Assembly: GCA_964348825.1 (NCBI GenBank)
Contig: CAYGDX010000001.1
Coordinates: 367,463-431,462 of the forward strand
Direction of reading: 5' to 3'
DNA length: 64,000 nt
DNA from: an uncultured Gammaproteobacteria bacterium
GTDB lineage: Bacteria; Patescibacteriota; Patescibacteriia; Veblenbacterales; UBA10138
Shown: piece after piece, positions 40,281-53,571 of the stretch
How positions within the stretch are numbered: the first letter of the stretch is position 1
Layout: the number at the start of each line of letters is the position of its first letter
Program-made: the position numbers and the translations under genes
The notes under the pieces: model-generated
Told to the model about the DNA's origin: nothing
Database searches by the model: none
What the model saw: the letters and a program-made list of their open reading frames with translations, nothing else

Positions 40281-40535
40281 AAAAAAATACCGGGCCTTTT
40301 AATTGGGCCCGGGATAGTACCTGATCGATCTCATTAAAGCGCAAAGATACGTCCGCTTCAATAATATCCCTATTCTTCCCTCACAAGACTGGGAAACGTC
40401 TTTGTGATGACCTAGCTGTTCGCTACGACTAAAGTCCGCTAGGCGACATTCAGTATTTGTTATACTGTCATACTTTGTAAAATATGTCAAGCGGACGTGC
40501 TTTACTTGGTCTAGGTATTTAAAATTAAGTCAAAA
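40281..40535 (-). ncRNA. Candidate structured non-coding RNA or structured 3' UTR, with its own intrinsic terminator at 40281-40313
   Basis: GC-rich island of about 250 nt (roughly 50% GC against about 33% nearby) with no credible ORF. The minus-strand terminator is CCGGGCC/GGCCCGG followed by UUUUUUU. The RNA class was not identified. Confidence 0.3.
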
Positions 40536-40592
40536 AATTAATAATCAATACAAAGTCCATTTTTATTTTTTTAATGGCTTTTTATTAACCAA

Positions 40593-41042
40593 CTAAGAAT
40601 ACCCCGTAGCTCTCCTGCGACTGGGTAATTCATTTTTTAGTAAATCAATAATAATTTTACGGGCTGGTTGGGTAATAAAATCTTGTGGCACTTCACCAAG
40701 CCCAAACCAACGCCACTCAGAAAAATTAGCTGGCTCCATCAATCGCGGAATTTGTTTAGTTTGGCATAAAAATAAAAACACTTTATCACCCTCTAAATAA
40801 CCATCAAGTTCAGTAATATATTTTAAAATTTCAAAATCAGTTATGCCTATTTCTTCGCCAACTTCACGACGCAAAGCAATCTCAATTGTTTCACCACTAT
40901 TACATCTACCACCCGGACAAGTCCAAAATACTTCATTTTCAGAATAATGACGCTTACCCATTAAAACCTTACTATTTTGAATAATCACCGCCACTGGGCA
41001 GGTTTTATTATTGCCTATTTGTTGTAATATATTTTGTAACAT
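40593..41042 (-). CDS. NUDIX hydrolase (MutT-like)
   Basis: Nudix box GGRCNSGETIEIALRREVGEEIG. Confidence 0.75.
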   Translation of the reverse strand: MLQNILQQIGNNKTCPVAVIIQNSKVLMGKRHYSENEVFWTCPGGRCNSGETIEIALRREVGEEIGITDFEILKYITELDGYLEGDKVFLFLCQTKQIPRLMEPANFSEWRWFGLGEVPQDFITQPARKIIIDLLKNELPSRRRATGYS

Positions 41043-41484
41043 TTTCTAACATCTCAAAAGTTTTAGGCCAAACAGTTTTTGCTGAAGGTACTAATTCAAA
41101 TTCAGACACTGGTGTTATAAGAAATTCCTTCACACTTTTTAGCGACAACCATTTCATATCAGCTACCTCTGCTGTATCAATTTTAAATTTATTGGTAATT
41201 TCTTTTTCTACCAACGCGTAATAAATATTAAATCTACGCACTTGCCCATCACTATGATTAAAATCAGTGGTAAATAAAAAATTAGGATTATAATCACCAA
41301 GTTTCAAGCCAAGTTCTTCTTTAACCTCACGTACCAAAGTTTGTATTGGCGTTTCATTTACTTCTGCCGTACCAGTAACAGTTGGTCCCCATACTCCAGG
41401 ATGTAAAGATTTTGTAAGCGATCTTTTGGCTAACAAAATTTCATTTTCTTTATTAATTAACCAAAGTACCGCAATTTCTAACAT
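41008..41484 (-). CDS. NUDIX hydrolase
   Basis: Nudix box GTAEVNETPIQTLVREVKEELG. It overlaps the downstream NUDIX gene. Confidence 0.7.
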   Translation of the reverse strand: MLEIAVLWLINKENEILLAKRSLTKSLHPGVWGPTVTGTAEVNETPIQTLVREVKEELGLKLGDYNPNFLFTTDFNHSDGQVRRFNIYYALVEKEITNKFKIDTAEVADMKWLSLKSVKEFLITPVSEFELVPSAKTVWPKTFEMLENVTKYITTNRQ

Positions 41485-41493
41485 AAAATATAA

Positions 41494-42069
41494 TTATTTT
41501 TCAAAATTTAAAACTTCAAAAACTTTATCTCTCAACTTCTCAAACTTCAAATAGCCAGCTTTTTTGTTGAAATGCCCAGCGTTTGGTACAAAATCCAAAT
41601 TAACACCTAAATGTTTTGCCAACTCCTCACCATTACCCAACGAAACAAATGGATCGTTATCAGATTGAAAAACACTAAAATAATTGGCCTTAGTTTTTAT
41701 TAAATCAAAGTTAAAATCAAAACCGGAAAATGCGCTATCGCGGTCATAATTTAAAATTGGCCTCACGCCAATTGGCGTGCCAGTAAAAAACGCGGCGCGA
41801 ATAGGGTTTTCTAACTTTTCAAGCACGCGCAACGCAAAAACTCCACCCAAACTATGCCCAATTATAACCGCATTTTCATTTAAATAATCCTCGTAATTCT
41901 TAAACACCTCAAACCACTCCCCTATTTTGGCCGCTACAACAGGCGGGGTTGGAAATTGGGGTATAAAAACCTTGCAACCTTTTTGCTCTAATTCTTGCTT
42001 CAACCACGGAAACCAATTTTCTTCCGGATATCCTTCCGTGCCGTGGAAAATAAAAATGTTGATAGGCAT
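41494..42069 (-). CDS. Alpha/beta-hydrolase, RBBP9/YdeN-like serine hydrolase
   Basis: IFIFHG...GHSLGG nucleophile elbow plus C-terminal D and H residues. The size of about 190 aa fits. Confidence 0.65.
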   Translation of the reverse strand: MPINIFIFHGTEGYPEENWFPWLKQELEQKGCKVFIPQFPTPPVVAAKIGEWFEVFKNYEDYLNENAVIIGHSLGGVFALRVLEKLENPIRAAFFTGTPIGVRPILNYDRDSAFSGFDFNFDLIKTKANYFSVFQSDNDPFVSLGNGEELAKHLGVNLDFVPNAGHFNKKAGYLKFEKLRDKVFEVLNFEK

Positions 42070-42107
42070 ATTTTTTATATAATTATAATTTTATATAAGT
42101 AAAAACT

Positions 42108-42449
42108 TTAATCACACAACAAACATTCGCAAGGTTTATTCTTTAAAAAACTTTTTTGCTCTTTAGTGGTATTAATAAATATCTGTTGACTGCTTGAACC
42201 GCTGGCTAATTTTTTATCAAGATCAGAATGGTGCTTGTATCCACGACGAAAAAACTCCTTTACCAACGATTCGTGTCTATTGTAAAGCGCTTTAGTTTTA
42301 CCAACCCAACGCAATGTTTCAGGATGCCTTGAATACCCACCTTTGGCACCATGCTTGGTTAAAATGTTCCATAAGCCATGAAGTTCACGGTGTTCAGCAA
42401 GTAAATGCTTTCGGCATAAATGTTTTGGATGTATATCCCAAATACGCAT
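42108..42449 (-). CDS. Pyrimidine-dimer DNA glycosylase (T4 endonuclease V / DenV family)
   Basis: N-terminus MRIWDIHPKHLCRKHLLAEHRELHGLW matches the conserved DenV-family start, in which the N-terminal amine and Glu form the catalytic pair. Confidence 0.6.
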   Translation of the reverse strand: MRIWDIHPKHLCRKHLLAEHRELHGLWNILTKHGAKGGYSRHPETLRWVGKTKALYNRHESLVKEFFRRGYKHHSDLDKKLASGSSSQQIFINTTKEQKSFLKNKPCECLLCD

Positions 42450-42553
42450 AAATTTAGACTAATTAAGAACTAGAAATATCTAAGTCTACCCTACTTCCCC
42501 ATGTGTTTAATGTGATTATTTTCATAATTAATATAAAAAGCAACTACTTTATT

Positions 42554-42805
42554 TTAGCGATGTGTGCAACCAGCCCAACAACAAGGTCTGCGCATTCCGA
42601 CCTTAAGCTTCGAGAGTGCCTTTTCTATTCGAATAGCCCGAGTTTTGGATTTCTTAGCGGAAATTACCCAACAGATCCATTCATTGCGTGCGAGTGGTGT
42701 AATATCCGCCCATATTGCTTTCACATCTGGTGAAGAAATAATGGCTTTTCGTAAATCTGCTGGTACTTTATGCGCTACACCCGCGGCACTTTCTTTTTTG
42801 GTCAT
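42554..42805 (-). CDS. YdeI/OmpD-associated family small protein
   Basis: 83 aa. The ...AIWADITPLARNEWICWVISAKK...R pattern is typical of the DUF1801/YdeI C-terminal domain. Confidence 0.45.
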   Translation of the reverse strand: MTKKESAAGVAHKVPADLRKAIISSPDVKAIWADITPLARNEWICWVISAKKSKTRAIRIEKALSKLKVGMRRPCCWAGCTHR

Positions 42806-42809
42806 AGTT

Positions 42810-43241
42810 TTAATTATTTACTACGAACTTTTTAAAATTCTCAAGAATTGCAGACCAGCCGGCTTTTTGCATTTCCGTGCTATTTACCTCTTCAGGATAA
42901 AATTCTTCTTCAATTTTCGTGGTGCCATTTCCTAAATCAGTAAAAATAATTTCACATTCTCTGTGTTGATCCTCACCATCCGCTTTATCCATGATGTATT
43001 TAATATTCTCAAACGGAGTGATATTTGTATAGGTGCCGGTAAAATCAAAAGAGGCACTGCCATCTTTGGCAGACATTCTGGTTAAAAATCTACCCCCAAC
43101 CCTTACATCATTTTCGGCATACGGACATTCCCAAGTTGAACTTGCAAAGGCCCAACCTTTGATACTTTCGGGGTTATTCCAATGTTCCCAAACTTTTTTG
43201 ATATCAGCATTTATTATTGTTTCTACTTTTATTTTCTGCAT
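42810..43241 (-). CDS. SRPBCC-superfamily protein (AHSA1 / activator-of-Hsp90-ATPase-like)
   Basis: IINADIKKVWEHWNNPESIKGW...FDFTGTY...GW pattern. The likely start is the ATG at 43239-43241; the track extends to 43310 and overlaps the upstream gene. Confidence 0.6.
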   Translation of the reverse strand: MQKIKVETIINADIKKVWEHWNNPESIKGWAFASSTWECPYAENDVRVGGRFLTRMSAKDGSASFDFTGTYTNITPFENIKYIMDKADGEDQHRECEIIFTDLGNGTTKIEEEFYPEEVNSTEMQKAGWSAILENFKKFVVNN

Positions 43242-43257
43242 ATAGTTATTCTTAAGT

Positions 43258-44013
43258 TTAGTGTGTCTCTTCCGCTTCTTTTCTTGTGTTAGAGTACGCG
43301 CACCAATCACAATGCTCTCCAGATTCTGGTGTCACATTACTTTCCAAACATTTCTTAATTTCAAACAAAGTTTTTTCTACCCACGAATCATCACCTTTAT
43401 GTTCAATCAAATTAACATCAAAATCAATTCGCTTATCAAAAGCTTGCCTATCCATTTTCCCAGTGCAATATACGAAATAACCAACATCAGATACTTTGAG
43501 CCCATTCTGTCGCAAAAGCCACTGGTATACCTCCATTTGGCGCTTGTAGCCATTCTGCCACTCTTTATCTAGTGCTTTGACTGCTTCATCTTTGGCGGTT
43601 GCCTTATAATCCACGACAATATATTCGCTCTTCCCGTTGATCCACAAATCATCAATCGCACCAGTTACTAAAAGTTCTGTTGGTTCGTGCAGGAATCTCA
43701 CACCACCAAAATTTCTTCGCCATTCATCAAGCTCCTCGTGAGACATTGGTCGCGCATCAATTCCATATTCTTTTTGTAATGGATGCTGTTCATTCTTCAC
43801 CCGATACGAGTCAAATTCTTGTTTCAAAAGAAAATCCACAGCACTGTTGATGGAAAAAGGAAATCCCGGTACCCGTTTTACACCAAGCTTGTTATCTATA
43901 TAAAAACATCGCGGACATTCCTTAAACAAATCAATTTTGGAACGAGAAAGTTTCCAATTCTTGCCTCCATAATTCCACGATTCCATTCGGTTTGGGTTGT
44001 AGTATTCAGACAT
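43258..44013 (-). CDS. Cas4-like PD-(D/E)XK nuclease with an Fe-S Cys cluster (DUF83 / PDDEXK_1-like)
   Basis: N-terminal LSRSKIDLFKECPRCFYI (a Cas4/AddB-type motif), a D...VVDYK catalytic core, and C-terminal Cys residues (KKC...HCDWC). It sits 5 nt downstream of hsdR. Confidence 0.6.
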   Translation of the reverse strand: MSEYYNPNRMESWNYGGKNWKLSRSKIDLFKECPRCFYIDNKLGVKRVPGFPFSINSAVDFLLKQEFDSYRVKNEQHPLQKEYGIDARPMSHEELDEWRRNFGGVRFLHEPTELLVTGAIDDLWINGKSEYIVVDYKATAKDEAVKALDKEWQNGYKRQMEVYQWLLRQNGLKVSDVGYFVYCTGKMDRQAFDKRIDFDVNLIEHKGDDSWVEKTLFEIKKCLESNVTPESGEHCDWCAYSNTRKEAEETH

Positions 44014-44017
44014 AAAA

Positions 44018-47000
44018 TTAAATTGCTACTGGAAAATACTCCCTATAAACTCGCACAGTTTCAAGATAGATAGATTCAATCAACCTTTTAGTCTGCATCT
44101 CCTCAACAATTCCTTTCTGAAGCAAAAGAAGTCTTACGTTCTGACGAATGCGCGCTTTTATTGTTTCGTTGTTAGTCCAGTCAATCGCCAAATCACGTCT
44201 AATACGTTTGGTAAGTTCCTTAACAAATTCTTTTATATCAATTCCTGCATTTTTTAGATCAGGATTTTTTTCAAGAGTATCGTAAAACACAATTTCCTCT
44301 TCAGAAAGTCCTGTATCTTTACTCTCTTGATCTAACTTCTTAATTTCATCCGCAATTTCAAGAAGTTGTTTTATTATTTCAGCCGAACTGATAACATTGT
44401 TTTCATATTTTTCAATAAGACCTTCCAATAGAGTAAGCATCGTTTCGTATCTGGCAGTATTAACACGCATACGAGAGCGAATTTCCTGATCGAGAAGTTT
44501 ACGGACAGAATCAACAGCAAAATTGTGATATTGGGATTTCTTTATTTCGGCAACAAATTTCTCATCGAAAATTGAAATACTTTTCTTTTCTTGACCTTCC
44601 ACATTAAACAAATCAACAATACCTTCAGCTTGAATTGAATCTTGCATTAAACTACGAATAGCACTTTCTGTCTCCTCTGGGAAAATAGCATGAGGTAATA
44701 CTGTCTGCTTCCGTATCGCTTCACGAATTGATTGAAAGAATTGTAAATCATTCACAATTTTCATTGCTTCCTCTCCCGGCATAACAAGAGCATGCAGTTT
44801 CGAAAGTTTCGAAACCATTCCCATATATTTCATTTTTCGCTCATCAGATAAATATCCGCTATTGGTTATTACTTCGTTTATTCCGGCTTGCATAATTCTA
44901 ACAAGCTCAACTCCTTTCTTCTGTTTCCAAGAAGTATAATCAACTTTGCCAAAAAATTCGCCGACCTGTTTGTGTATGATGTGCATTTGTGCGACAACCT
45001 CATTAATAGGAATTAGTGCACCATTTTGAATGTCGGAATCATACCAAGCAAGTGCTTTCTTTAAGTTTTCAGCAATACCAATATAATCAACAATCAAGCC
45101 CCCTGGTTTATCTTTAAAAACTCGGTTTACACGAGCAATTGCCTGCATAAGCCCGTGATTTTTAAGTGGTTTATCAAGATACATCGTGTGCAAACATGGT
45201 ATATCAAAGCCGGTGAGCCACATATCGCACACAATGGCAATTTTCAGAGAATCATTTACTTTTTTAAATCTTTTCTCTAGTTTCTTTACATCTTTCTCTG
45301 ATTGTATAACGGAAGCATATTCATCGCTGCTTGAAATAACCACCGCACATTCCGGAGCACCATCAATTTTTTTGATCGCTTCATACATCAGAACCGCGAT
45401 CCTACGACTCATTGTCACGATCATTGCCTTACCCTCAATTGGTCTATTATTAAAGTGATTTACAATATCTTCTGCAATTTTATTTATGCGACTTGGCGCT
45501 CCAACAACTTCTTCGAGCACAGCCCATTCTTTACGCATTCTCGCGTTATCATCAGAGACAACTTCGCCCAATACTGCATCAAATTTAGAATCAATAAATT
45601 TATCGGCAAGATGAAGTGGCACAAGCCGACCTTCGTAGTAAATTGGTACCGTAGATTTATCTATTACCGATTGGCTGATCTTGTACGAACTAACTACATT
45701 ACCAAAAACCCTAACTGTGTCTTTATCATTTTTCGAAATAGGTGTTCCAGTTACTCCCAAAAAGCTTGCATTAGGTAATGCAAGGCGCACATTACCAGCT
45801 AAATTGCTGTATTGCGTACGATGAGCCTCATCAGCAAGAACAATTATATTGTCTCGTTCGGTTAAGGCATTTTGAGCAACTGGATCTTCTTGGAATTTCT
45901 GAATGGTAGTAAAGATAAGCTCACTACCCAAATGTGACAATCGAGTGCGTAAATCTTGTATACTCGACGCTTTTTTCGCAAGCGTTCCATATCCGGTGCG
46001 ACTGAAAGTTTTAAATAACTGATCATCTAAATCTTCACGGTCTGTTAGAAATACATACGCAGGACTTTTTAACTCTGGAATATTTTTTGTTTTATTCACA
46101 TAAAAAACCATTGAAAGTGATTTTCCCGAACCCTGTGTATGCCAAAATACACCAATTTTATGTTCTTGTTTTCCAAGTACTGAGTTAATTGTACTTTCAA
46201 TAGTTTTGTTTACTCCATAATACTGGTGATAGAGTGCCATCTTTTTTGTGTAGGTAACTGCATCACCATCACTGTCGGCTTCAAAAATTGTGAAGTGTTG
46301 TAGCACATCTAAGAATCGCTCTTTGTTAAAAAGTCCTTTAGTCAATACTTCTAATTCTTCCGCTTCTTTAGAAAAATCATTTTCAACATTGATACCTTTC
46401 CATGTTCCATATCGTTCCCATGAACTAGAGATAGTGCCGTGTCGCGCATTAAACAAATCAGACAGCCCGACAACTTGGTTGAATAAAAATAGTTTCGGAA
46501 TTTCCTTTTTGTAATATTCAATATCTCGATACGCCTCACCAATTGTCGCTTCTGTACGAACGCCACTCTTTAATTCGAAAACACCGAGTGGTAAACCATT
46601 CACAAAGACAACAGCGTCTAGACGGCACACCGAATCAATACCTTGCACAGTGAATTGATTCACAACCAAAAATTCATTAGATAACGGCTCGGCAAAATCT
46701 ATAAGTTTAACCAAATCAGTTTTTTCATCTCCATTTTCAGTCCACGAAATCTTTTTACCATTTGTAATCCATGAATAAACCTCCTTGTTGCCAAGGATAA
46801 GATCAGCATGAGAATAATCCGCAATTTCTTTAACAATAATTTCCGCCTGTTCAGCAGGAAGCGACGGATTTATTCTTCGAATGGCTCCAAGAAGTCTGCC
46901 TCTTAAAACCACACCTCGAAAATCCTCACGCTCGGCGCGAGCCTGTCCAGGGTTTATATCTGGCCCATAGATGTGCTCATAACTCTCGCCCTTGAGCCAG

Positions 47001-47047
47001 TCGGTGAGTGATTGTTCCGTTAAATTGTTTTCGTTGATGGGGTTCAT
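44018..47047 (-). CDS. hsdR: Type I restriction enzyme R subunit (HsdR), SF2 helicase-nuclease
   Basis: 1009 aa with an N-terminal nuclease region and helicase motifs I (GSGKS), II (DEAH) and VI. It is adjacent to hsdS and hsdM. Confidence 0.9.
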   Translation of the reverse strand: MNPINENNLTEQSLTDWLKGESYEHIYGPDINPGQARAEREDFRGVVLRGRLLGAIRRINPSLPAEQAEIIVKEIADYSHADLILGNKEVYSWITNGKKISWTENGDEKTDLVKLIDFAEPLSNEFLVVNQFTVQGIDSVCRLDAVVFVNGLPLGVFELKSGVRTEATIGEAYRDIEYYKKEIPKLFLFNQVVGLSDLFNARHGTISSSWERYGTWKGINVENDFSKEAEELEVLTKGLFNKERFLDVLQHFTIFEADSDGDAVTYTKKMALYHQYYGVNKTIESTINSVLGKQEHKIGVFWHTQGSGKSLSMVFYVNKTKNIPELKSPAYVFLTDREDLDDQLFKTFSRTGYGTLAKKASSIQDLRTRLSHLGSELIFTTIQKFQEDPVAQNALTERDNIIVLADEAHRTQYSNLAGNVRLALPNASFLGVTGTPISKNDKDTVRVFGNVVSSYKISQSVIDKSTVPIYYEGRLVPLHLADKFIDSKFDAVLGEVVSDDNARMRKEWAVLEEVVGAPSRINKIAEDIVNHFNNRPIEGKAMIVTMSRRIAVLMYEAIKKIDGAPECAVVISSSDEYASVIQSEKDVKKLEKRFKKVNDSLKIAIVCDMWLTGFDIPCLHTMYLDKPLKNHGLMQAIARVNRVFKDKPGGLIVDYIGIAENLKKALAWYDSDIQNGALIPINEVVAQMHIIHKQVGEFFGKVDYTSWKQKKGVELVRIMQAGINEVITNSGYLSDERKMKYMGMVSKLSKLHALVMPGEEAMKIVNDLQFFQSIREAIRKQTVLPHAIFPEETESAIRSLMQDSIQAEGIVDLFNVEGQEKKSISIFDEKFVAEIKKSQYHNFAVDSVRKLLDQEIRSRMRVNTARYETMLTLLEGLIEKYENNVISSAEIIKQLLEIADEIKKLDQESKDTGLSEEEIVFYDTLEKNPDLKNAGIDIKEFVKELTKRIRRDLAIDWTNNETIKARIRQNVRLLLLQKGIVEEMQTKRLIESIYLETVRVYREYFPVAI

Positions 47048-47913: not shown

Positions 47914-49005
47914 TTAAATTAATTTTTCTAATAATTGATCTCTCGACTCTTTAAGTTTTACATTTTCTTTTTCAAGCACAACCATTTCACTTATAAAACT
48001 TTTAATTTTTGAAACAAAAGCCTTCGCGAGTTCAACGGGGGGTATGAAAAATTCAATACTCGATAACTCGCTCCAATGACGCTTGTACTCTCTCTGGTCA
48101 ATCAAATCTTTTGTCAAAAAATAAGTAAATATTGGGTTGTAACCATCTTTCTCGCCAAGAGGAATTGTATTAGGACCTAACGAGAATGGTTCACATATAA
48201 TTTGGGTTCTGCAAGTATGATCACCGAAAATTAGCACCGGATTATATATATTTGCCTTAAAAGAAGGTTCTTCTTCACTAAAACCAATTATCCCTTTTGA
48301 AGATTGGTCGTAAACGGGTATAGAACCTTTGTTCAACAATGAATCTTCTTTGTAGGTTTTTTGTGTAGATAATCGTTCAACAACATCTTCGATTTTCCCC
48401 ATATTCCACCCCTCCGGAATTTCTCCCATTTCACTTTCTATCATTTTCTTTTTTTCATATCCCGGAAAACGCAAGTTTACAAACCATTCATTAAAAATTG
48501 TTTGTGCTGTAGCTTCAAGATTTTTGATTATCTTATTATTATTTTCAATTTTTGAATCATAAGCACTCAATATTTCGGTAATTTTCTTTTGTGTTAAAAA
48601 TTCTGGGGTCTCAACTTGTAAGTTATATATGGTATCTCTACTTAATCCCGGAACAGCAGAATCGCCACCATAACGAGGTAAATTAATTCTCTTTAAGAGA
48701 TAGAAAATATATTTTAAATCAAAACCTTCTTTGGGTTCATCAATAAAAAATGCAGTGTCGATAGGAAAAGAAGGTTGTTCAGAAAAATAGAGAGATCCTA
48801 CATTTCCTTTTCGTCCAATGATTATTGCGGGCGTATTAACTTTCGCTTCATTGTGATAACCCACAACCCCACTTGATGCATAAACTGGGACAGATCCCTT
48901 AATTCTTTTTGGTTCGGGCAATCCAAAACCATATTTAATATCAGCCAAGTCGCTGACAAGATATGGTTTTGATTCTATATTTATTTGTTCCAGTAATTTG
49001 CTCAT
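47914..49005 (-). CDS. hsdS: Type I restriction-modification specificity subunit (HsdS)
   Basis: Target-recognition domain followed by the conserved coiled-coil repeat (ILSAYDSKIENNNKIIKNLEATAQTIFNEWF). At 363 aa it is somewhat short. Confidence 0.8.
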   Translation of the reverse strand: MSKLLEQINIESKPYLVSDLADIKYGFGLPEPKRIKGSVPVYASSGVVGYHNEAKVNTPAIIIGRKGNVGSLYFSEQPSFPIDTAFFIDEPKEGFDLKYIFYLLKRINLPRYGGDSAVPGLSRDTIYNLQVETPEFLTQKKITEILSAYDSKIENNNKIIKNLEATAQTIFNEWFVNLRFPGYEKKKMIESEMGEIPEGWNMGKIEDVVERLSTQKTYKEDSLLNKGSIPVYDQSSKGIIGFSEEEPSFKANIYNPVLIFGDHTCRTQIICEPFSLGPNTIPLGEKDGYNPIFTYFLTKDLIDQREYKRHWSELSSIEFFIPPVELAKAFVSKIKSFISEMVVLEKENVKLKESRDQLLEKLI

Positions 49006-49011: not shown

Positions 49012-49776
49012 TTATTTTTTACTAACTAAATCAAGAATATCCTTGGTTGGTTTTATTTCCAGAAATTGGTACAGACTTGGTTTAATAACTTCCAATATAG
49101 AAGCAAGGAATCCAGAAGTTTGCCCGTTGTTATTTTTTGCAGTTTTTAACCATCGAGCTTTTGCAACATCAAATGATTCAATTTTATCTTTTTTTAATTT
49201 CGCGATCGCAACAGGTTTATATTCTTGATTAATGATAGAAGCCATAGATGGATTATTTAACATATCAATAACACGCTGTGCATTTTCTGCTTTCATTAAA
49301 TCTCCATCTATAAACTGAAAGTTTCTGTGTACATGCTGTATTCTATGCTCAATGACACCATTAAATACCTCTTTTGTTTTTTCTACGCCTGCTTGAAAAA
49401 AGTCTTCAATGTCATCCTTATTTATTGCAATTTTCTTTATATCTTTTTTTAGTCCAAAAAACAGATTTTCTATTTTATTCTTTAAGGTATCCATATCTTG
49501 TAGATATGCATGAATATGATGATTAAGTTCTTCTGTTCTATCTATTTTTTCTGAATTAGAATAGAACTCTTGAAAATATACTTCATATCGTAAAATCTTC
49601 TGCCATGCATAATTTACACTAATTAATAAATTGTTATACTTCTCGAGATTCTTCTTGTTCAATCTCGAAACATCTAACAAATTTTTCAATTCATTTTTCA
49701 AAATATCTGGATAAAGACAAATTCCAAAGTCTCCCAATATTTCATCCATTATGTGATTTTGGTTTTGGGTAAGCAT
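49012..49776 (-). CDS. Uncharacterised soluble protein embedded between hsdM and hsdS
   Basis: 254 aa with no recognisable domain. It contains an RIQHVH segment (Rx4H-like). It is tightly packed, with 6-7 nt gaps on either side. Confidence 0.45.
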   Translation of the reverse strand: MLTQNQNHIMDEILGDFGICLYPDILKNELKNLLDVSRLNKKNLEKYNNLLISVNYAWQKILRYEVYFQEFYSNSEKIDRTEELNHHIHAYLQDMDTLKNKIENLFFGLKKDIKKIAINKDDIEDFFQAGVEKTKEVFNGVIEHRIQHVHRNFQFIDGDLMKAENAQRVIDMLNNPSMASIINQEYKPVAIAKLKKDKIESFDVAKARWLKTAKNNNGQTSGFLASILEVIKPSLYQFLEIKPTKDILDLVSKK

Positions 49777-49781: not shown

Positions 49782-51569
49782 TTAAAATCCTAATTCCTTA
49801 AGATTTTTCTCAATATCTTTTTCTAATTCACGACCCTTTGTAAATGCTTCCCGGAGTTCTCCAGAGAGTTTTTGCATTTTTTCTTCAAAAGAAATTCCAT
49901 CATCTTCAATATCTGCAAGTCCGACATATCTTCCCGGGGTAAGAGTATATCCGTTCTTTTTTATTTCTTCTAGGTTTGCTGATTTACAAAAACCAGAAAC
50001 ATCTTCGTATTTTAGCGCTCCTTTTTCTTCACGCCATGAACGAACAGTACCCGCAATCTTTTCAAGATTATCTTTATTGAAAACAACCTGTTTTCGAGAA
50101 ATTTGTTCAAAAATATCTCGGGCATCAATAAAAAGAGTTTCACCTTTGCGATTACGGAAACGATCGCCACTTTTATTTTTTGCCAAAAACCACAAAGAAA
50201 CCGGGAGAGATACATTATAAAAGAGTTTTGATGGACAAGAAATAATCACGTCCACAAGGTCTGCGTCGATGAGCTTCTGACGAAGTTCACCCTCTTTTCC
50301 AGACACAGCAAGCGCTCCATTTGGCATAACGAATCCCGCATGTCCGTTTGGTGAAAGATGATGTGTAAAGTGTTGCACCCACATAAAATTTGCACTGCCA
50401 GAAGGCGGTACACCTAAAATAATGCGTGGGTCATTGTCAGAAAGTTTTTGAGGTTCCCATTCTGCATTAAACGGAGGATTGGCGATAACAAAATCTGCTT
50501 GAAGATTAGGAAATTTGTCTTGATAGTATGTATTGCCCAATTCTATTTTTCCTGAAAGTCCCCGAATAGCAAGATTCATTTTACAAAGACGAAGTGTTGT
50601 TTGATTGCTTTCTTGTCCACTGATAGAAAGCTTGGATGGATCCATTTTATGATCATGTAAATATTCTCCCATAGACACAAACATTCCACCACTACCGCAG
50701 GCAGGATCAAGAATGCGAGCGTTTTCATATGGCTCAAGAATTTCAACAAGAAGTTTTACAATAGAACGAGGGGTAAAAAATTCTCCTCCGCGCTTTCCTT
50801 CGGCAGAAGCAAATTGTCCCAAAAAATATTCATAGATGCGACCGAGAATGTCTTTTTCTCGGTCAAAATCGTGATCAAAAGAAATTTTAGAAAAAATATT
50901 TACCAATTCACCAAGAACAGTGTGGTCCAAATTTGTTTTTGTATATACACGAGGAAGAACATTTTCAAGTTGTACAGGATTATCTTTCTCAATCAATTCC
51001 ATTGCGTTGTCCAAAACTTTTCCCAAATCAGGACTCATGGTCTTTGTTTGTAAATATTCCCAACGAGATTTTTCCGGAACGTAGAATACACCCTCGGAAG
51101 TATAAAAATCTTTTGTTTCAAGAATTGCTTTTCGTGCTTCATCGGTCGGAACATAAAAATCTTCATTCTTTTTATCGCGAGTCATTCCCGTAAGAATTTC
51201 TCTGCGTTTATAGAATGAGTCAGAAATGTATTTCAAGAAAAGTAAGCCTAAAACTATGTTTTTATATTCCGAAACGTCTATATTTCCACGTAATTTATCT
51301 GCCGCCGCCCAAAGTTCTTTTTCAAAACCAAGGTCATGGTGATTAACCCCAGTCTTTTTGGAAATTGCTTTTTCTTGAGCTTTTTTTTGCTCTTCTTTTA
51401 TACGATCTTTTATTTGCTGAGATAAACTACCTATTTCATATAAAAAACCGGTACCTACTTCCTTAACCTTTAAATTGGCTTCGCCTTTTAATTTCTTTTG
51501 AATTGCCTGCCTCGTAACTCCCAAAATACGAGCCAAGTCTGCAGTTGAAATGTAGTCATTATTATTCAT
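49782..51569 (-). CDS. hsdM: Type I restriction-modification methyltransferase subunit (HsdM) with an N-terminal HTH extension
   Basis: N-terminal HTH region YISTADLARILGVTRQAIQKKL, then the HsdM N-domain and a gamma-class N6-adenine MTase domain (FFTPRSIV; NPPF motif VIANPPFN). The likely start is the ATG at 51567-51569; the track's TTG-start extension to 51587 would lie inside the promoter. Confidence 0.85.
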   Translation of the reverse strand: MNNNDYISTADLARILGVTRQAIQKKLKGEANLKVKEVGTGFLYEIGSLSQQIKDRIKEEQKKAQEKAISKKTGVNHHDLGFEKELWAAADKLRGNIDVSEYKNIVLGLLFLKYISDSFYKRREILTGMTRDKKNEDFYVPTDEARKAILETKDFYTSEGVFYVPEKSRWEYLQTKTMSPDLGKVLDNAMELIEKDNPVQLENVLPRVYTKTNLDHTVLGELVNIFSKISFDHDFDREKDILGRIYEYFLGQFASAEGKRGGEFFTPRSIVKLLVEILEPYENARILDPACGSGGMFVSMGEYLHDHKMDPSKLSISGQESNQTTLRLCKMNLAIRGLSGKIELGNTYYQDKFPNLQADFVIANPPFNAEWEPQKLSDNDPRIILGVPPSGSANFMWVQHFTHHLSPNGHAGFVMPNGALAVSGKEGELRQKLIDADLVDVIISCPSKLFYNVSLPVSLWFLAKNKSGDRFRNRKGETLFIDARDIFEQISRKQVVFNKDNLEKIAGTVRSWREEKGALKYEDVSGFCKSANLEEIKKNGYTLTPGRYVGLADIEDDGISFEEKMQKLSGELREAFTKGRELEKDIEKNLKELGF

Positions 51570-51577
51570 ACCAAGTA

Positions 51578-51623
51578 AGTGTAGCAAAACACTAATAGGT
51601 TGTCAAGTGACAACCTATTAGTG
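51578..51623 (-). promoter_or_regulatory. Promoter of the hsdM operon, embedded in a perfect 16-2-16 palindrome (candidate autoregulatory operator)
   Basis: On the minus strand, TTGACA (51601-51606), a 17-nt spacer, then TACACT (51578-51583), with the ATG 8 nt downstream. The palindrome CACTAATAGGTTGTCA-AG-TGACAACCTATTAGTG spans 51590-51623. Confidence 0.5.
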
Positions 51624-51879
51624 AATCAATCTGCCACAAAAATACTTAAAAAACAGTCTCAAAAAGTAGTTCTAAAAAATAGCCAATTTATTAATTACAA
51701 TGCTAGCAAATTTTACAAAAATTGTCTAAAAAATAACACTTCCTAATAATCAGCCAAAACACATACTTTTATCTCAATTTTCTACTAAATCATGCACGCC
51801 ACTGGACTTGGTATAACTAACGACAATTTAAACACTATTACAACCACACAATTTTAATTCAGCGTAACCCTATATTACA

Positions 51880-51912
51880 AAAACTTCCCCGCTATCTTGG
51901 GGAAGTTTTTTA
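51880..51912. terminator. Bidirectional intrinsic terminator
   Basis: AACTTCCCC/GGGGAAGTT stem flanked by an A-run and a T-run. It separates the HTH-ATPase gene unit from the RM operon. Confidence 0.65.
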
Positions 51913-52028
51913 CCTGTTGCCACAGATATATAATAGAAAAACTTGCATTCTTTTGCAAGAGTGTAACATAATGCATAGATGTCCACCCCGCTACACTTAT
52001 AAATCTAAACAAATAATTCTACGCATCG

Positions 52029-52187
52029 CTGGGAGACATGGATTCTGCGCCTTTTCGGCGCATCCGCCGTGAAGGCGGAGAACTACTTTATATTTAGATC
52101 CAGAATCTGTTGTCCCCGCCTTTTCGGCGCGCCTGCCTCCTCGGCAGGTAAATCGCAAATGAGGCGACTACCATTAAACGACCCCCT
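52029..52187 (-). repeat. Degenerate tRNA-Gln-like composite element (copy A)
   Basis: In minus-strand orientation it reads AGGGGGTCGTTTAATGGTAG, then a 52-nt insert, then GGACAACAGATTCTGGATCT, then about 50 nt, then AGAATCCATGTCTCCCAG. The tRNA-Gln D-arm, anticodon arm (CUG) and 3' end are interrupted by a structured module with GAAA-tetraloop hairpins. The acceptor stem is not complementary, so it is probably non-functional. Confidence 0.55.
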
Positions 52188-52211
52188 TAGTTTCGTAATT
52201 CAAAGTTCACA

Positions 52212-53261
52212 TTACTTTTTAATCTTTGCCTCATTTTTTGACCTCTCGACCATAAACCTTACTCCTTCTGACATATTAGATTCTTTAATTTCTATATCCG
52301 GATGAGCATTTTGAAAAACACGATAAATTTCATCAGCAAATGCTTGACCAACTACCGGCACACCATCAAAATCAAGTAGTATTATTTTAAATTTATCTAA
52401 ACCAAATAGAATTCGTCGTGCTTGTGAACGTGAAATATTAACACCGCCCATTGTAAAAAGTTTAACTCTAATTTCAGTTTTATCAAAACCATAATCACTG
52501 TCAACTGAAATATTTGTATACTTCTTGAACACATCAGTAAGGTGTAGCCCTGAATTAACATCGATTTCAAAAATAACCTTAGTACCTCTTTTTACTATTG
52601 GAATATTTTTTATATTTGGACCTTTTGCCGTAATGATAAGTTGATAACGGAAACTATTCAATATAAATGTATCTGCTGATTTAGAGGTAAAAAAAATCCC
52701 CTCTCCAGAATGAGATTTTGACATTGTTGTTGTTTTACCTTTGAGTAAATCTTGAATCGCCTCAATTTCAGAATGAAGCTTTTTTTTCTTCATAATATTA
52801 CGAAATACTCCCACACCCGAATCCTCTACTATAAAAGAAAGTTTGCTATCGCGAATCGCAACTTCAATATTTATTACTTTTGACTTCGAATGTTCAATCG
52901 CATTATTAAATATTTCAGAAAATGCAAAGGTAAAAATACTTTGAATGTTTTCTGGTAATTTTAGAAGCTGTGAAAATCTCTGCTCTACTTCCATAAGAAC
53001 TTTGTGTTCTTCTAATTTTATATTTTTATATTTTTTACGAAAAATAGATGGAAATACCTTGGGATTTTTTTCTGCATATTCCGTAGAAATGTAAAAGGCA
53101 GAGCGTGTTCCACCAAATTTTATTATTTCTTTTTCAAAAATAAGCTCTGCTATAAGTTGGTTTACATATTGGCGAGACACACCAAACTGCACAGAAAGCT
53201 CTTTAGTAGTCACTTTCCCTTGTTTATTCGCTATTTCTAGTATTTTTATTTTATTTATCAT
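52212..53261 (-). CDS. Three-domain protein: N-terminal winged HTH, GHKL/HATPase_c ATPase (anti-sigma-factor-kinase-like) and a C-terminal STAS-like DUF4325 domain
   Basis: HTH KVTTKELSVQFGVSRQYVNQLIAEL. GHKL N-box EIFNNAIEHS, G1 box VEDSGVGV and G2 box SGEGIFF. C-terminal LLDFDGVPVVGQAFADEIYRVF is typical of DUF4325. The likely start is the ATG at 53259-53261; the track's TTG-start ORF extends to 53294. Confidence 0.6.
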   Translation of the reverse strand: MINKIKILEIANKQGKVTTKELSVQFGVSRQYVNQLIAELIFEKEIIKFGGTRSAFYISTEYAEKNPKVFPSIFRKKYKNIKLEEHKVLMEVEQRFSQLLKLPENIQSIFTFAFSEIFNNAIEHSKSKVINIEVAIRDSKLSFIVEDSGVGVFRNIMKKKKLHSEIEAIQDLLKGKTTTMSKSHSGEGIFFTSKSADTFILNSFRYQLIITAKGPNIKNIPIVKRGTKVIFEIDVNSGLHLTDVFKKYTNISVDSDYGFDKTEIRVKLFTMGGVNISRSQARRILFGLDKFKIILLDFDGVPVVGQAFADEIYRVFQNAHPDIEIKESNMSEGVRFMVERSKNEAKIKK

Positions 53262-53271
53262 AAGCAAGTAT

Positions 53272-53312
53272 ATTGTAAACCAATCTATAATCAATTGTCA
53301 AGTAATTGACAA
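53272..53312 (-). promoter_or_regulatory. Promoter with a palindromic -35 region for the HTH-GHKL-STAS gene
   Basis: On the minus strand, TTGTCAATTACTTGACA includes a TTGACA -35 (53296-53301). A 17-nt spacer follows, then TACAAT (53272-53277), with the ATG 10 nt downstream. It shares the TTGTCA/TGACAA half-sites with the hsdM promoter. Confidence 0.5.
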
Positions 53313-53371
53313 CTAGCCCAGTAATGTTTTATATGAAACAAATCCGCCAAAATTGTTAATCATCGTCCCAA

Positions 53372-53491
53372 CTGGGAGACATGGATCCCTGTAGTATATC
53401 ACTTCGGTGATAACTACAGGGCGCGGTCGGCGCCTCTTCGGCGGGCCTGCCTCACCGGTAGGTAAATCGCTAATTAGGCGACTACTCATTC
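53372..53491 (-). repeat. tRNA-Gln-derived structured repeat (copy B), immediately 3' of the genuine tRNA-Gln
   Basis: It carries the same roughly 55-nt three-hairpin module as copy A (GTAGTCGCCTAATTAGCGATTTACCTACCGGTGAGGCAGGCCCGCCGAAGAGGCG). After that comes a perfect 13-bp hairpin with a CGAA loop, and then a copy of the tRNA 3' end, GATCCATGTCTCCCAG. Confidence 0.55.
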
Positions 53492-53500
53492 TCTATATAA

Positions 53501-53571
53501 CTGGGGGACATGGATTCGAACCATGATAAACAGATCCAGAATCTGTTGTCCTACCATTAGACGATCCCCCA
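53501..53571 (-). tRNA. tRNA-Gln (anticodon CUG)
   Basis: Hand-folded cloverleaf. Acceptor stem UGGGGGA/UCCCCCA with U1:A72 and discriminator G73, both Gln identity elements. D-arm GUCU/GGAC. Anticodon arm ACAGA-UUCUGGA-UCUGU. A 4-nt variable loop. T-arm CAUGG-UUCGAAU-CCAUG. No CCA is encoded. Confidence 0.85.

What the first reader, a model, noticed from the sequence alone, without database searches (positions are those of the whole stretch)
40281..53571. A 13-kb accessory/defence island on the minus strand, with tRNA-Gln at one end and a GC-rich structured RNA at the other
From 51.6 kb down to 40.6 kb almost every gene is on the minus strand, with minimal spacing. Their functions are typical of horizontally acquired stress and defence cargo:
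- A type I RM system plus embedded unknowns.
- A Cas4-like nuclease.
- A DenV-type UV-dimer glycosylase.
- SRPBCC and YdeI genes.
- An RBBP9-like hydrolase.
- Two NUDIX hydrolases.

The array starts next to a tRNA gene with duplicated tRNA 3' ends. It ends at a structured, terminator-capped non-coding segment (40281-40535).

The surrounding genes are core housekeeping: dnaX on one side and the efflux/cupredoxin operon on the other.
Basis: inference. Interest (0 to 1): 0.55.

Follow-up and report, generated by a model that had tools for sequence, protein, structure and literature searches.

The report
Mosaic restriction-system region beside tRNA-Gln
Next to a glutamine tRNA gene in a small-genome Patescibacteria (CPR) bacterium, a recently imported DNA restriction system sits among ordinary resident genes, so this is a patchwork variable region, not one 13-kb mobile island, and it is fairly ordinary.

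Summary
The single 13-kb island bounded by tRNA-Gln and a structured RNA is not supported.

- **Variable gap:** against the only relative that keeps both flanks, the gap is 18.9 kb (34.6-53.5 kb).
- **Imported part:** only about 43.2-51.9 kb looks foreign. This is a type I RM operon (hsdM, unknown 254 aa, hsdS, unknown 285 aa, hsdR) plus a Cas4-like nuclease. It is a tetranucleotide outlier.
  - HsdR is 94% identical to proteins of Yonathbacteria/Nomurabacteria MAGs, and the Cas4-like protein is 89% identical to a Buchananbacteria protein. The best non-self ProRS match is 70%.
- **Resident part:** the NUDIX, Ser-hydrolase and DenV genes have native composition. SRPBCC and YdeI lie at the edge of the shift. 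The one family searched, the Ser hydrolase, is widespread in CPR genomes.
- **No mobility signals:** there is no integrase and no tRNA repeat near 40 kb. The tRNA 3'-end repeats bracket only 1.5 kb, which holds an HTH-GHKL-DUF4325 gene between two GC-rich tRNA-Gln-derived elements.
- **Junction caveat:** another assembly of the same strain swaps the two tRNA-Gln paralogs at this junction.

Verdict: a mosaic plasticity zone with an RM module transferred between CPR lineages. Interest is low to moderate.

The parts
53500..53572 (-). tRNA-Gln(CTG), directly downstream of dnaX (53781-55316)
   Evidence: ARAGORN and Rfam at 63 bits. The dnaX-tRNA-Gln linkage is kept in L001, L002 and L082.
53372..53499 (-). 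copyB, a tRNA-Gln-derived GC-rich element. Read 5' to 3' on the minus strand it is GTAG, the 60-nt three-hairpin module D2 (53426-53485), a 33-nt hairpin, then the tRNA T-loop-to-3'-end 17-mer (53372-53388).
   Evidence: Fold z = -4.5. GC 0.53. No Rfam hit.
52212..53261 (-). wHTH + GHKL ATPase (anti-sigma-kinase-like) + DUF4325/STAS-like protein, 349 aa. Its own promoter, TTGACA-18-TACAAT, lies at 53301-53272.
   Evidence: Pfam. Promoter scan 11/12. More than 6900 homologs, 66-82% identical across CPR classes. The promoter is conserved in L154.
52029..52186 (-). copyC, a pseudo-tRNA-Gln. It has the acceptor 5' strand and D arm, then D2 (52112-52171), then an anticodon arm identical to the resident tRNA-Gln(CTG), then a 50-nt GC-rich insert, then the 3'-end 17-mer (52029-52045). 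The 5' half of the T arm is missing.
   Evidence: Alignment. Fold z = -3.7. Not called by ARAGORN or Rfam. GC 0.55.
51588..52028 (.). AT-rich spacer with no ORF. It holds a terminator-like hairpin (51959-51942, minus strand) and the hsdM promoter TTGACA-17-TACACT, which sits inside a perfect 15+4+15 palindrome (51590-51623).
49782..51569 (-). hsdM, type I methyltransferase with an extra N-terminal HTH
   Evidence: Pfam N6_Mtase 5e-103 and HsdM_N. PADLOC MTase_I. Its 90%-identity cluster has 7 members.
49012..49776 (-). unk254, an all-helical protein of a rare family embedded between hsdM and hsdS. Conserved His and Arg residues (H87, R145, H148, H150).
   Evidence: - 98 representative clusters among 1.84 billion proteins.
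- No Pfam or PADLOC family.
- AF2 model pLDDT 93, with no Foldseek match in PDB or BFVD.
- Its homolog P0364 sits between TIR_2 and TerB_N genes.
47914..49005 (-). hsdS, specificity subunit with two target-recognition domains
   Evidence: Pfam Methylase_S, two stretches. PADLOC Specificity_I. Singleton at 90% identity.
47052..47909 (-). unk285, a protein with a coiled coil and two predicted transmembrane helices, embedded between hsdS and hsdR
   Evidence: No family match. The AF2 single-sequence model is unusable, pLDDT 47. The transmembrane helices were read from the sequence.
44018..47047 (-). hsdR, type I restriction subunit
   Evidence: Pfam. TIGR00348 at 581 bits. 94% identical to P0462, seen in Yonathbacteria/Nomurabacteria MAGs; its 90% cluster has 74 members.
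43258..44013 (-). Stand-alone PD-(D/E)XK Cas4-like nuclease with CPRC and CDWC cysteine pairs, 4 nt downstream of hsdR
   Evidence: Pfam PDDEXK_1, with Cas_Cas4 just above its cutoff at 22.9 vs 22.7 bits. TIGR cas4 is below its cutoff at 31 vs 65 bits. 89% identical to a Buchananbacteria protein; its 90% cluster has 265 members. No CRISPR array in the window.
42554..43241 (-). AHSA1/SRPBCC (42810-43241) and OmdA/YdeI (42554-42805), spaced 16 nt and 4 nt from their upstream neighbours
   Evidence: Pfam. Gene starts taken from the calls in L077 and L150.
40593..42449 (-). DenV-type pyrimidine-dimer glycosylase (42108-42449), RBBP9/YdeN-like Ser hydrolase (41494-42069) and two NUDIX hydrolases (41008-41484, 40593-41042)
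   Evidence: Pfam. Native tetranucleotide composition, z = 0.3. The Ser hydrolase has more than 2200 homologs, 69-76% identical across CPR, and stands alone in L152 and L153.
40281..40535 (-). Candidate structured RNA, either a 3' UTR or an independent sRNA. It ends in CCGGGCC-N9-GGCCCGG followed by a U-run.
   Evidence: Fold z = -4.1. No Rfam hit at E<=10 apart from noise. No convincing ORF. No homolog in 2 Mb of fetched loci.
40087..40280 (-). A second non-coding stretch ending in the 15-bp bidirectional terminator 40087-40121, shared with the convergent cupredoxin operon
   Evidence: Only sub-threshold Rfam hits, all driven by the terminator.
34740..40017 (+). MacA/MacB-type efflux genes (membrane-fusion protein, ABC ATPase, FtsX-type permease), a 153-aa protein, cytochrome b5 and a cupredoxin. 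These lie in the same lineage-specific gap and are not core.
   Evidence: Pfam and Pfam labels on the gene calls in L075 and L077. Absent between tRNA-Gln and ProRS in L001. No homologs in the relatives' flanks except generic ABC ATPases. Singletons at 90% identity.

Best explanation
The segment is a mosaic plasticity zone. It fills an ancient synteny gap between two conserved blocks: VirD4-like/p226/dnaX/tRNA-Gln(CTG) on one side and ProRS/mreBCD/PBP2/greA/lysS on the other. It has at least three layers.

**1. A laterally acquired defence module, about 43.2-51.9 kb.** This is a complete type I RM operon plus a Cas4-like PD-(D/E)XK nuclease.
- The operon order is HTH-hsdM, unk254, hsdS, unk285, hsdR.
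- It is probably transcribed from one promoter, which sits inside a perfect palindrome.
- It has circulated recently among Patescibacteria.
- Inferred mechanism from the type I RM family: HsdM2S methylates a bipartite target, and HsdR translocates and cuts unmethylated DNA.
- Also inferred: the HTH on HsdM represses its own promoter at the palindrome, and the two embedded ORFs are swappable accessory or back-up defence genes.

**2. Resident small enzymes, 40.6-42.5 kb.** These are DenV, the Ser hydrolase and two NUDIX hydrolases. They look like ordinary genes of this genome that happen to lie in the gap. SRPBCC and YdeI (42.5-43.2 kb) sit at the edge of the compositional shift and are packed onto the RM operon, so their origin is unclear.

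**3. The tRNA-proximal 1.5 kb.** A widespread CPR regulator gene (HTH-GHKL-STAS) lies between two degenerate GC-rich copies derived from the resident tRNA-Gln(CTG). I read these as scars of past recombination or duplication at the tRNA, not as the ends of the 13-kb array.

The efflux/cupredoxin operon (34.7-40.0 kb) belongs to the same lineage-specific gap.
For: **Synteny**
- L001 has VirD4-like, p226, dnaX, tRNA-Gln(CTG), one aminotransferase, ProRS, MreB, MreC, MreD, PBP2, GreA and LysRS on one strand.
- The window keeps the same order and strand, with 18.9 kb in place of the aminotransferase.
- L079, L080 and L081 keep the ProRS block but each has different genes upstream.

**Horizontal transfer of the RM block**
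- There is a sustained tetranucleotide deviation from about 43 to 52 kb. Sliding-window z reaches 2.8-3.75. The 7.6-kb RM segment exceeded all 300 same-size background segments.
- HsdR is 944/1006 identical to P0462 (Yonathbacteria/Nomurabacteria MAGs), and its 90% cluster has 74 members.
- The Cas4-like protein is 89% identical to a Buchananbacteria protein, and its cluster has 265 members.
- By contrast, ProRS, MreB, LysRS, PBP2 and DnaX clusters have 1-6 members, and the best non-self ProRS match is 70%.
- The genes between hsdM and hsdR are the variable part. unk254 and hsdS are singletons at 90% identity, and unk285 has 4 members.

**Native cargo**
- z = 0.3 for 40593-42449 and 0.8 for 40593-44013.
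- The Ser hydrolase family is widespread in CPR and stands alone among housekeeping genes elsewhere.

**tRNA end**
- The 17-mer repeats occur only at 52029, 53372 and 53501.
- copyC's anticodon arm equals that of the resident tRNA-Gln(CTG).

**Transcription units**
- There are separate strong promoters for the HATPase gene and for hsdM, with a terminator-like hairpin between them.

**Literature**
- Restriction systems are reported as common in CPR genomes (PMC4742961).
Against: - The nearest genome that keeps both flanks is distant (DnaX 53%, ProRS 66%). The gap comparison therefore does not date or order the insertions.
- The composition signal is moderate. The peak 2-kb distance equals the largest value seen among background windows, and GC and GC3 are unremarkable.
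- The RM block has no flanking repeats or mobility gene, so how it arrived is unknown.
- SRPBCC and YdeI are packed at 4-16 nt onto the RM operon. The border between imported and resident genes (43.2 kb or 42.5 kb) is therefore uncertain.
- High identity of HsdR across phyla shows transfer among CPR lineages but not its direction.
- HTH autoregulation and any defence role for unk254 and unk285 are inference only.
- The tRNA junction differs between assemblies.
Confidence: 0.6

Rival explanations
1. One 13-kb integrative genomic island entered the 3' end of tRNA-Gln by site-specific recombination. It runs from the tRNA to the structured RNA at 40.3 kb and carries all twelve genes as cargo.
For: - It lies next to a tRNA whose T-loop-to-3'-end 17-mer is repeated. 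To my knowledge this is the classic att core position (Williams 2002).
- The whole array is absent from L001.
- It contains an RM system with an HGT signature.
Against: - There is no integrase, recombinase or transposase between 34 and 54 kb.
- The repeats bracket 0.13 kb and 1.5 kb, not 13 kb, and none lies at 40 kb.
- The 40.6-44.0 kb genes have native composition.
- The Ser hydrolase is a common CPR gene found in non-island contexts.
- The missing segment in L001 extends 5.5 kb beyond the proposed border.
Confidence: 0.1
2. Nothing here is an island. The whole 34.6-53.5 kb stretch is vertically inherited and lineage-specific, and the composition signal only reflects the unusual amino-acid content of RM proteins.
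For: - GC and GC3 are typical of the genome.
- There are no mobility genes.
- No close relatives are available to show presence or absence. The best are 66-70% identical in ProRS.
- Co-orientation matches the rest of the replichore.
Against: - HsdR at 94% and the Cas4-like protein at 89% identity to proteins of other candidate phyla, against at most 70-77% for housekeeping proteins, cannot be vertical.
- The 90% clusters of these two proteins have 74 and 265 members, against 1-6 for housekeeping proteins.
Confidence: 0.08
3. The join between the array and dnaX-tRNA-Gln(CTG) is an assembly chimera, or one state of a population-level inversion. In the organism the array follows ftsX-tRNA-Gln(TTG), and dnaX-tRNA-Gln(CTG) is followed by other DNA.
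For: - In ENA sample ERZ27247837, contig k141_1760627 (L071) matches the window at 100% from 64000 to 53501. It then diverges exactly at the tRNA 3' end.
- Contig k141_320809 (L150, 156 kb) matches 53529-39782 at 100% but carries ftsX and tRNA-Gln(TTG) upstream. All 9 mismatches lie inside the tRNA.
- The two paralogs share their 3' 29 nt.
- Logan unitigs break at this point.
Against: - L001 links dnaX-tRNA-Gln(CTG) to ProRS-mreBCD on one strand, as the window does.
- copyC carries the anticodon arm of the CTG paralog, not the TTG one.
- Contig-length coincidences suggest other assemblies also carry dnaX together with island genes. An 8682-bp contig carries the DnaX and HATPase cluster members. 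A 70564-bp contig carries the DnaX, HATPase, Ser hydrolase and cupredoxin members. This is inference only.
- Both ENA contigs stop within 0.4-1 kb after crossing the tRNA.
Confidence: 0.2
4. copyB and copyC are not scars. They are functional tRNA-like structured RNAs, or the ends of a small tRNA-Gln-targeting element that carries the HTH-GHKL-STAS gene.
For: - They are the only non-coding GC-rich islands in the window.
- Both fold well, z = -3.7 and -4.5, with an acceptor-like closing stem.
- Most differences between the two D2 copies fall in loops.
- They bracket one gene that has its own promoter.
Against: - There are only two copies and no covariation.
- There is no Rfam match.
- The D2 pattern is absent from IMG/VR and JGI metagenome contigs.
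- Homologs of the gene in L154 and L157 lack such flanks.
- copyB has a broken pair in hairpin 2, and copyC has lost its T arm.
Confidence: 0.15

Closest known systems
tRNA-linked genomic or defence islands (integrase-mediated, att core in the tRNA T-loop-to-3' end)
   Same: It lies downstream of a tRNA 3' end. Direct repeats of the 17-nt T-loop-to-3'-end segment are present. Its content is accessory and includes an RM system. It is absent from a syntenic relative.
   Different: There is no integrase. The repeats do not bound the array. Most of the proposed cargo is compositionally native. The variable gap is larger than the proposed island.
E. coli prr locus (EcoprrI type Ic RM with the anticodon nuclease PrrC embedded between the hsd genes), and RloC/Abi-type genes linked to RM systems (from my own knowledge)
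   Same: Non-RM ORFs are inserted between hsdM/hsdS and hsdS/hsdR in one tight operon. This is compatible with a back-up defence function.
   Different: unk254 and unk285 show no similarity to PrrC, RloC or any PADLOC, Pfam or PDB entry. No ATPase or nuclease motif was established. An RxxxxH motif that resembles the HEPN signature is not backed by any fold match.
Mobile type I RM modules and the E. coli immigration control region (hsd-mcr-mrr hypervariable locus) (from my own knowledge)
   Same: A complete hsdMSR set behaves as a transferable unit within a hypervariable chromosomal locus. hsdS is the most divergent gene.
   Different: Here transfer is among Patescibacteria lineages. hsdM carries an N-terminal HTH, and its promoter lies in a palindrome. 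A Cas4-like nuclease travels with hsdR.
Controller (C) protein regulation of RM operons (from my own knowledge)
   Same: An HTH domain is encoded at the start of the operon, and a perfect palindrome overlaps the -35 box.
   Different: The HTH is fused to HsdM rather than being a separate C protein. Binding has not been tested.

Membership tests
Integrase-type tRNA-linked genomic island | Lies next to the 3' end of a tRNA gene | tested here: met
   tRNA-Gln at 53500-53572, with the array beginning 14 nt after its 3' end. In another assembly the tRNA at this junction is the TTG paralog.
Integrase-type tRNA-linked genomic island | Direct repeat of the tRNA 3' segment at the distal boundary | tested here: not met
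   The 17-mer (up to 3 mismatches) and the 13-mer (up to 2 mismatches) occur only at 52029, 53372 and 53501. None lies at 40-40.6 kb or 34.6 kb.
Integrase-type tRNA-linked genomic island | An integrase or recombinase gene inside the element | tested here: not met
   Pfam, NCBIfam and PADLOC scans of the ORFs between 38.5 and 53.3 kb, plus the contig gene calls for the efflux genes, found no recombinase family.
Integrase-type tRNA-linked genomic island | Atypical composition over the whole element | tested here: not met
   Only about 43-52 kb deviates. 40.6-44.0 kb has z = 0.8, and the HATPase gene is marginal at z = 2.1 with 5% of background segments as far.
Integrase-type tRNA-linked genomic island | Empty site in close relatives | tested here: inconclusive
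   L001 lacks the array but also lacks 34.7-40.0 kb, and it is distant (DnaX 53%). No genome closer than 70% ProRS identity could be examined.
Type I restriction-modification system | HsdM, HsdS with two TRDs, and HsdR with nuclease and SF2 motor domains, all in one operon | tested here: met
   N6_Mtase 5e-103; Methylase_S with two stretches; HSDR_N, SWI2_SNF2 and T1RH-like_C; TIGR00348 at 581 bits against a 285-bit cutoff. Gaps between genes are 4-6 nt.
Type I restriction-modification system | Enzymatic activity (methylated bipartite motif, restriction) | not testable with these tools
   Needs methylome or biochemical data.
CRISPR-Cas (Cas4) | Cas4 family score, plus neighbouring cas genes or a CRISPR array | tested here: not met
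   The TIGR cas4 score is 31 bits against a 65-bit cutoff. Pfam Cas_Cas4 is at its threshold, 22.9 vs 22.7 bits. There are no cas genes and no repeat array in the window.
PrrC/RloC-type RM-embedded anticodon nuclease | Sequence or fold similarity to PrrC or RloC (ABC-type ATPase plus nuclease domain) | tested here: not met
   unk254 and unk285 have no hits in Pfam, PADLOC, NCBIfam or PDB. The unk254 model has no Foldseek match.
HEPN RNase superfamily (considered for unk254) | Four-helix HEPN fold with an Rx4-6H motif | tested here: inconclusive
Known RNA families (Rfam 15), for 40281-40535, copyB and copyC | Covariance-model score at or near the gathering threshold | tested here: not met
   Only tRNA-Gln passes. 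All other hits are far below threshold and driven by terminators.
Functional tRNA (copyC) | Cloverleaf with intact T arm and acceptor stem | tested here: not met
   The T-arm 5' half is absent, two of seven acceptor pairs are mismatched, and two inserts of 50-52 nt are present. ARAGORN and Rfam do not call it.

The most novel reading that the evidence does not exclude
Two readings remain open.

1. The two GC-rich tRNA-Gln-derived modules (copyB and copyC, sharing the three-hairpin D2 core) could be a previously undescribed class of tRNA-like structured RNA in Patescibacteria. Alternatively they could be the ends of a miniature tRNA-targeting element.
2. The rare, confidently folded helical protein unk254, inserted between hsdM and hsdS and found elsewhere beside TIR and TerB_N genes, could be a new RM-linked defence effector.
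Probability: 0.12. Interest if true: 0.55.

Novelty: new member of a known kind. Interest (0 to 1): 0.25.

Why it matters
- **A documented transfer among CPR lineages.** This is a concrete case of near-identical type I restriction genes, with an attached Cas4-like nuclease, shared between different Patescibacteria candidate phyla. These organisms mostly lack CRISPR and are reported to rely on restriction systems (PMC4742961). It fits the known picture and does not change it.
- **Where RM operons vary.** The slots between the hsd genes are the variable part of an otherwise conserved module. That makes them a useful place to look for new accessory defence genes.
- **A method lesson.** A tRNA plus a same-strand gene run plus defence-flavoured annotations is not enough to call an island in a CPR genome. 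Small NUDIX, hydrolase and repair genes are ordinary there, and the replichore strand bias is strong.

Tried and rejected
- **Far-end att repeat.** Searched for the tRNA 3' end near 40 kb and 34.6 kb and found none. No long direct or inverted repeats flank the RM block.
- **RNA families.** Rfam at gathering and at E<=10 on both non-coding ends gave only the tRNA. I considered RNase P, SRP, 6S and tmRNA readings of 40281-40535 and of copyB/copyC by eye and dropped them for lack of any model hit.
- **D2 pattern.** No hits in IMG/VR or in JGI metagenome contigs. blastn and nhmmer of the RNAs against 2 Mb of fetched loci returned only the tRNA 3' end.
- **Closer relatives.** dnaX in GTDB representatives and in JGI metagenomes gave at best 53% and 51% identity. 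The metagenome machine failed twice first.
- **Island proteins in relatives' flanks.** tblastn found nothing except generic ABC ATPases.
- **Plasmid collection.** Searches with unk254, unk285 and the HATPase protein gave nothing or one weak, uninformative hit.
- **unk285 structure.** The single-sequence model had pLDDT 47 and is unusable.
- **HATPase gene as a small mobile element.** Rejected. The many short contigs reflect the collection, not mobility. The one exact-protein look-up showed a single context. There are no tRNA-like flanks in L154. In L157 the gene lies on the host side of a tRNA-Ser that is targeted by a serine recombinase.
- **Logan unitig break at 36648-36675.** It coincides with the Walker A motif of the ABC ATPase, so it is a repeated k-mer and not an island border.

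Full report
**1. What is in the sequence**

The window is low-GC, about 36%. It comes from a Patescibacteria/CPR genome:
- The best named ProRS relatives are Kerfeldbacteria and 'Patescibacteria group' MAGs at 65-70% identity.
- The exact proteins sit on a 469-kb NCBI MAG contig and in ENA and Logan assemblies.

ARAGORN and Rfam find one tRNA, tRNA-Gln(CTG), at 53500-53572 on the minus strand. Downstream of it on the minus strand lie, in order:
- an HTH-GHKL ATPase-DUF4325 gene (52212-53261)
- hsdM with an N-terminal HTH (49782-51569)
- an unknown 254-aa ORF
- hsdS
- an unknown 285-aa ORF
- hsdR
- a PD-(D/E)XK Cas4-like gene
- AHSA1/SRPBCC, OmdA/YdeI and a DenV-type glycosylase
- an RBBP9/YdeN-like Ser hydrolase and two NUDIX genes

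From hsdM to ydeI the gaps are 4-16 nt. The later gaps are 104, 38 and 9 nt, followed by a 35-nt overlap.

Co-orientation is not special. Almost everything from 19.7 to 34.6 kb and from 40.6 to 59.7 kb is on the minus strand, and GC skew is negative throughout.

**2. The two ends**

*The 40-kb end.*
- The minus strand of 40281-40535 folds better than shuffles (z = -4.1). It ends in CCGGGCC-N9-GGCCCGG followed by a U-run.
- It is 40% GC, barely above background.
- It has no Rfam match at E<=10, no convincing ORF and no homolog in 2 Mb of fetched loci.
- It is followed by a second non-coding stretch and by a 15-bp bidirectional terminator (40087-40121) shared with the convergent cupredoxin operon.
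- Nothing marks it as an attachment site. The tRNA 3' end does not recur there.

*The tRNA end.*
- The 17-mer CTGGGAGACATGGATTC, which runs from the T loop to the 3' end, occurs at 52029, 53372 and 53501. None of 100 shuffles gave three matches.
- The two extra copies belong to larger elements. copyB (53372-53499) and copyC (52029-52186) share a 60-nt, 85%-identical three-hairpin module, D2.
- copyC is nearly a whole tRNA-Gln: the acceptor 5' strand and D arm, then D2, then an anticodon arm identical to the resident tRNA-Gln(CTG), then a 50-nt GC-rich insert, then the 17-mer. It lacks the 5' half of the T arm.
- Both elements fold well, z = -3.7 and -4.5. They are the only non-coding islands above 53% GC in the window.
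- They have no Rfam match and no covariation, since there are only two copies. The D2 pattern is absent from IMG/VR and JGI metagenome contigs.
- Together they bracket only the HATPase gene, 1.5 kb in all.

**3. Is it an island? Synteny**

- dnaX-tRNA-Gln is conserved in L001, L002 and L082, and a tRNA-Gln lies within about 2 kb of dnaX in Doudnabacteria.
- L001 (DnaX 53%, ProRS 66%, LysRS 77%) carries VirD4-like, p226, dnaX, tRNA-Gln(CTG), one aminotransferase, ProRS, MreB, MreC, MreD, PBP2, GreA and LysRS on one strand.
- The window has the same order and strand, with 18.9 kb (34628-53499) in place of the aminotransferase.
- Three relatives at 67-69% ProRS identity keep ProRS through LysRS but each has different genes upstream and no dnaX-tRNA-Gln within 10 kb.
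- No island protein has a homolog in any relative's flank.
- No genome closer than 70% ProRS identity could be examined, so an exact empty site could not be tested.

**4. Is it an island? Composition and phyletic pattern**

*Composition.*
- Tetranucleotide distance, with the tested window left out of the background, peaks across 42-53 kb. z reaches 2.8 with 4-kb windows and 3.75 with 2-kb windows, rising at about 43 kb and falling at about 52 kb.
- The 7.6-kb RM segment is further from the background than all 300 same-size background segments.
- 40593-44013 (z = 0.8) and the efflux operon (z = 1.4) are unremarkable.
- GC and GC3 do not differ, so the signal is moderate.

*Phyletic pattern.* This is the stronger evidence.
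- HsdR is 944/1006 (94%) identical to a protein seen in Yonathbacteria and Nomurabacteria MAGs. Its 90%-identity cluster has 74 members.
- The Cas4-like protein is 89% identical to a Buchananbacteria protein, and its cluster has 265 members.
- HsdM's cluster has 7 members.
- Housekeeping clusters (ProRS, MreB, LysRS, PBP2, DnaX, p226) have 1-6 members, drawn from the same or a sister strain. The best non-self ProRS match is 70%.
- hsdS and unk254 are singletons, and unk285's cluster has 4 members. The conserved RM backbone therefore carries variable genes between hsdM and hsdR.

*The resident genes.*
- The Ser hydrolase has more than 2200 homologs, 69-76% identical, in Daviesbacteria, Levybacteria, Buchananbacteria and others. 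It stands alone among housekeeping genes in L152 and L153.
- The HTH-GHKL-DUF4325 protein has more than 6900 homologs, 66-82% identical across CPR classes, with a conserved promoter.
- The homolog contexts examined (L154, L157) show no tRNA-like flanks.
- These are ordinary CPR genes, not island cargo.

No recombinase, transposase or phage gene occurs between 34 and 54 kb.

**5. The tRNA junction in other assemblies**

- ENA contig k141_1760627 (L071) is 100% identical to the window from 64000 to 53501. It then continues into unrelated sequence with an unknown ORF.
- ENA contig k141_320809 (L150, 156 kb) is 100% identical from 53529 to 39782 but carries ftsX and tRNA-Gln(TTG) upstream. All nine mismatches are inside the tRNA.
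- The two tRNA-Gln paralogs share their first 24 nt (with one mismatch) and their last 29 nt.
- This is a reciprocal exchange across at least 155 kb. It is either an inversion between paralogs or a misjoin. It is not excision of an island.
- Three observations favour the window's arrangement as ancestral:
  - L001's synteny matches it.
  - copyC carries the CTG-type anticodon arm.
  - Contigs of 8682 bp and 70564 bp appear to carry dnaX together with island genes. This last point rests on contig-length coincidence only.
- The Logan unitig break at 36648-36675 is the Walker A motif of the ABC ATPase and not a border.

**6. How it most likely works**

*Shown.* A complete type I RM gene set sits in one tight operon. 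It has a strong promoter, TTGACA-17-TACACT, inside a perfect 15+4+15 palindrome. A separate strong promoter serves the HATPase gene, and a terminator-like hairpin lies between the two units.

*Inferred.*
- HsdM2S methylates a bipartite site, and HsdR restricts unmodified DNA.
- The N-terminal HTH of HsdM binds the palindrome and autoregulates the operon, much as a controller protein does.
- The Cas4-like nuclease travels with hsdR and may process DNA ends.
- unk254 and unk285 are accessory or back-up defence genes. The grounds are their position, unk254's homolog lying between TIR_2 and TerB_N genes, and unk285's coiled coil with two predicted transmembrane helices.

*unk254 in detail.*
- It belongs to a rare family, 98 representative clusters among 1.84 billion proteins.
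- Its AF2 model is confident (pLDDT 93) and all-helical.
- It matches no Pfam, PADLOC or PDB family and has no Foldseek neighbour.
- A conserved R-x4-H motif is the only hint of a HEPN-like function.

*The resident enzymes.* DenV, the NUDIX hydrolases and the Ser hydrolase, and possibly SRPBCC and YdeI, are resident repair or housekeeping functions.

**7. Verdict**

- There is a horizontally transferred defence module, but it is about 9 kb (the Cas4-like gene through hsdM). It has no visible integration machinery and is embedded in a larger, older synteny gap.
- The tRNA repeats are local scars around one gene.
- The structured RNA at 40.3 kb is an untyped candidate sRNA or 3' UTR, not a boundary.
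- Type I RM modules in hypervariable loci, and RM abundance in CPR genomes, are already known (PMC4742961). This is a new member of a known kind.
- The unresolved oddities are copyB/copyC, unk254 and the paralog swap. They carry most of the remaining interest.

Noticed in passing
window 25204-28108 (minus strand): An NfeD-like gene, a 573-aa flotillin/Band_7 gene and a 189-aa ORF sit between greA and lysS. In L001, L079, L080 and L081 greA is followed directly by lysS. This is a second lineage-specific insertion in the conserved block, with mildly atypical composition (z about 1.3).
   Followed up: partly
window 53501-53572; L071 11817-12221; L150 1-1094: The same strain is assembled with the two tRNA-Gln paralogs (CTG and TTG) exchanged. 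One contig has dnaX-tRNA(CTG) followed by an unknown ORF, and the other has ftsX-tRNA(TTG) followed by the array. The exchange point lies within the shared 3' 29 nt.
   Followed up: partly
window 51578-51625: The hsdM promoter (TTGACA-17-TACACT, with TG) lies inside a perfect 34-bp palindrome, and HsdM has an extra N-terminal HTH. This may be controller-like autoregulation. The palindrome also scores as a terminator.
   Followed up: no
window 52212-53330; L154 3940-4003; L157 1-2957: The HTH-GHKL-DUF4325 family is very abundant and highly conserved across CPR, and its promoter (TTGACAATTGA..AGATTGGTTTACAAT) is conserved too. Relatives at 30-45% identity lie on 39 IMG/VR contigs. In L157 the gene precedes a tRNA-Ser that abuts a large serine recombinase.
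   Followed up: partly
window 56591-59197 (minus strand): An 868-aa TrwB/VirD4-like coupling-protein ATPase (DUF8128) is conserved together with p226 and dnaX in L001 and L002. It therefore looks like a core gene of the lineage, not a sign of a conjugative element.
   Followed up: partly
window 53601-53712 and 55453-55541: AT-rich repeated motifs (AAATCCTAAAT / TTAGGATTT units) flank dnaX on both sides, in the intergenic regions upstream and downstream. Their function is unknown.
   Followed up: no
L155 3928-7811 and L156: A 43%-identical homolog of unk254 lies in a cluster with an Imm_superinfect gene, a TIR_2 gene and a TerB_N gene, next to a MacAB-like efflux operon. This looks like a defence-island context.
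   Followed up: no
window 40033-40075: A C/G-run hairpin pair (CCCTCCCC..GGGGAGGG..GGGAGGGG) lies just after the cupredoxin stop codon and before the bidirectional terminator.
   Followed up: no
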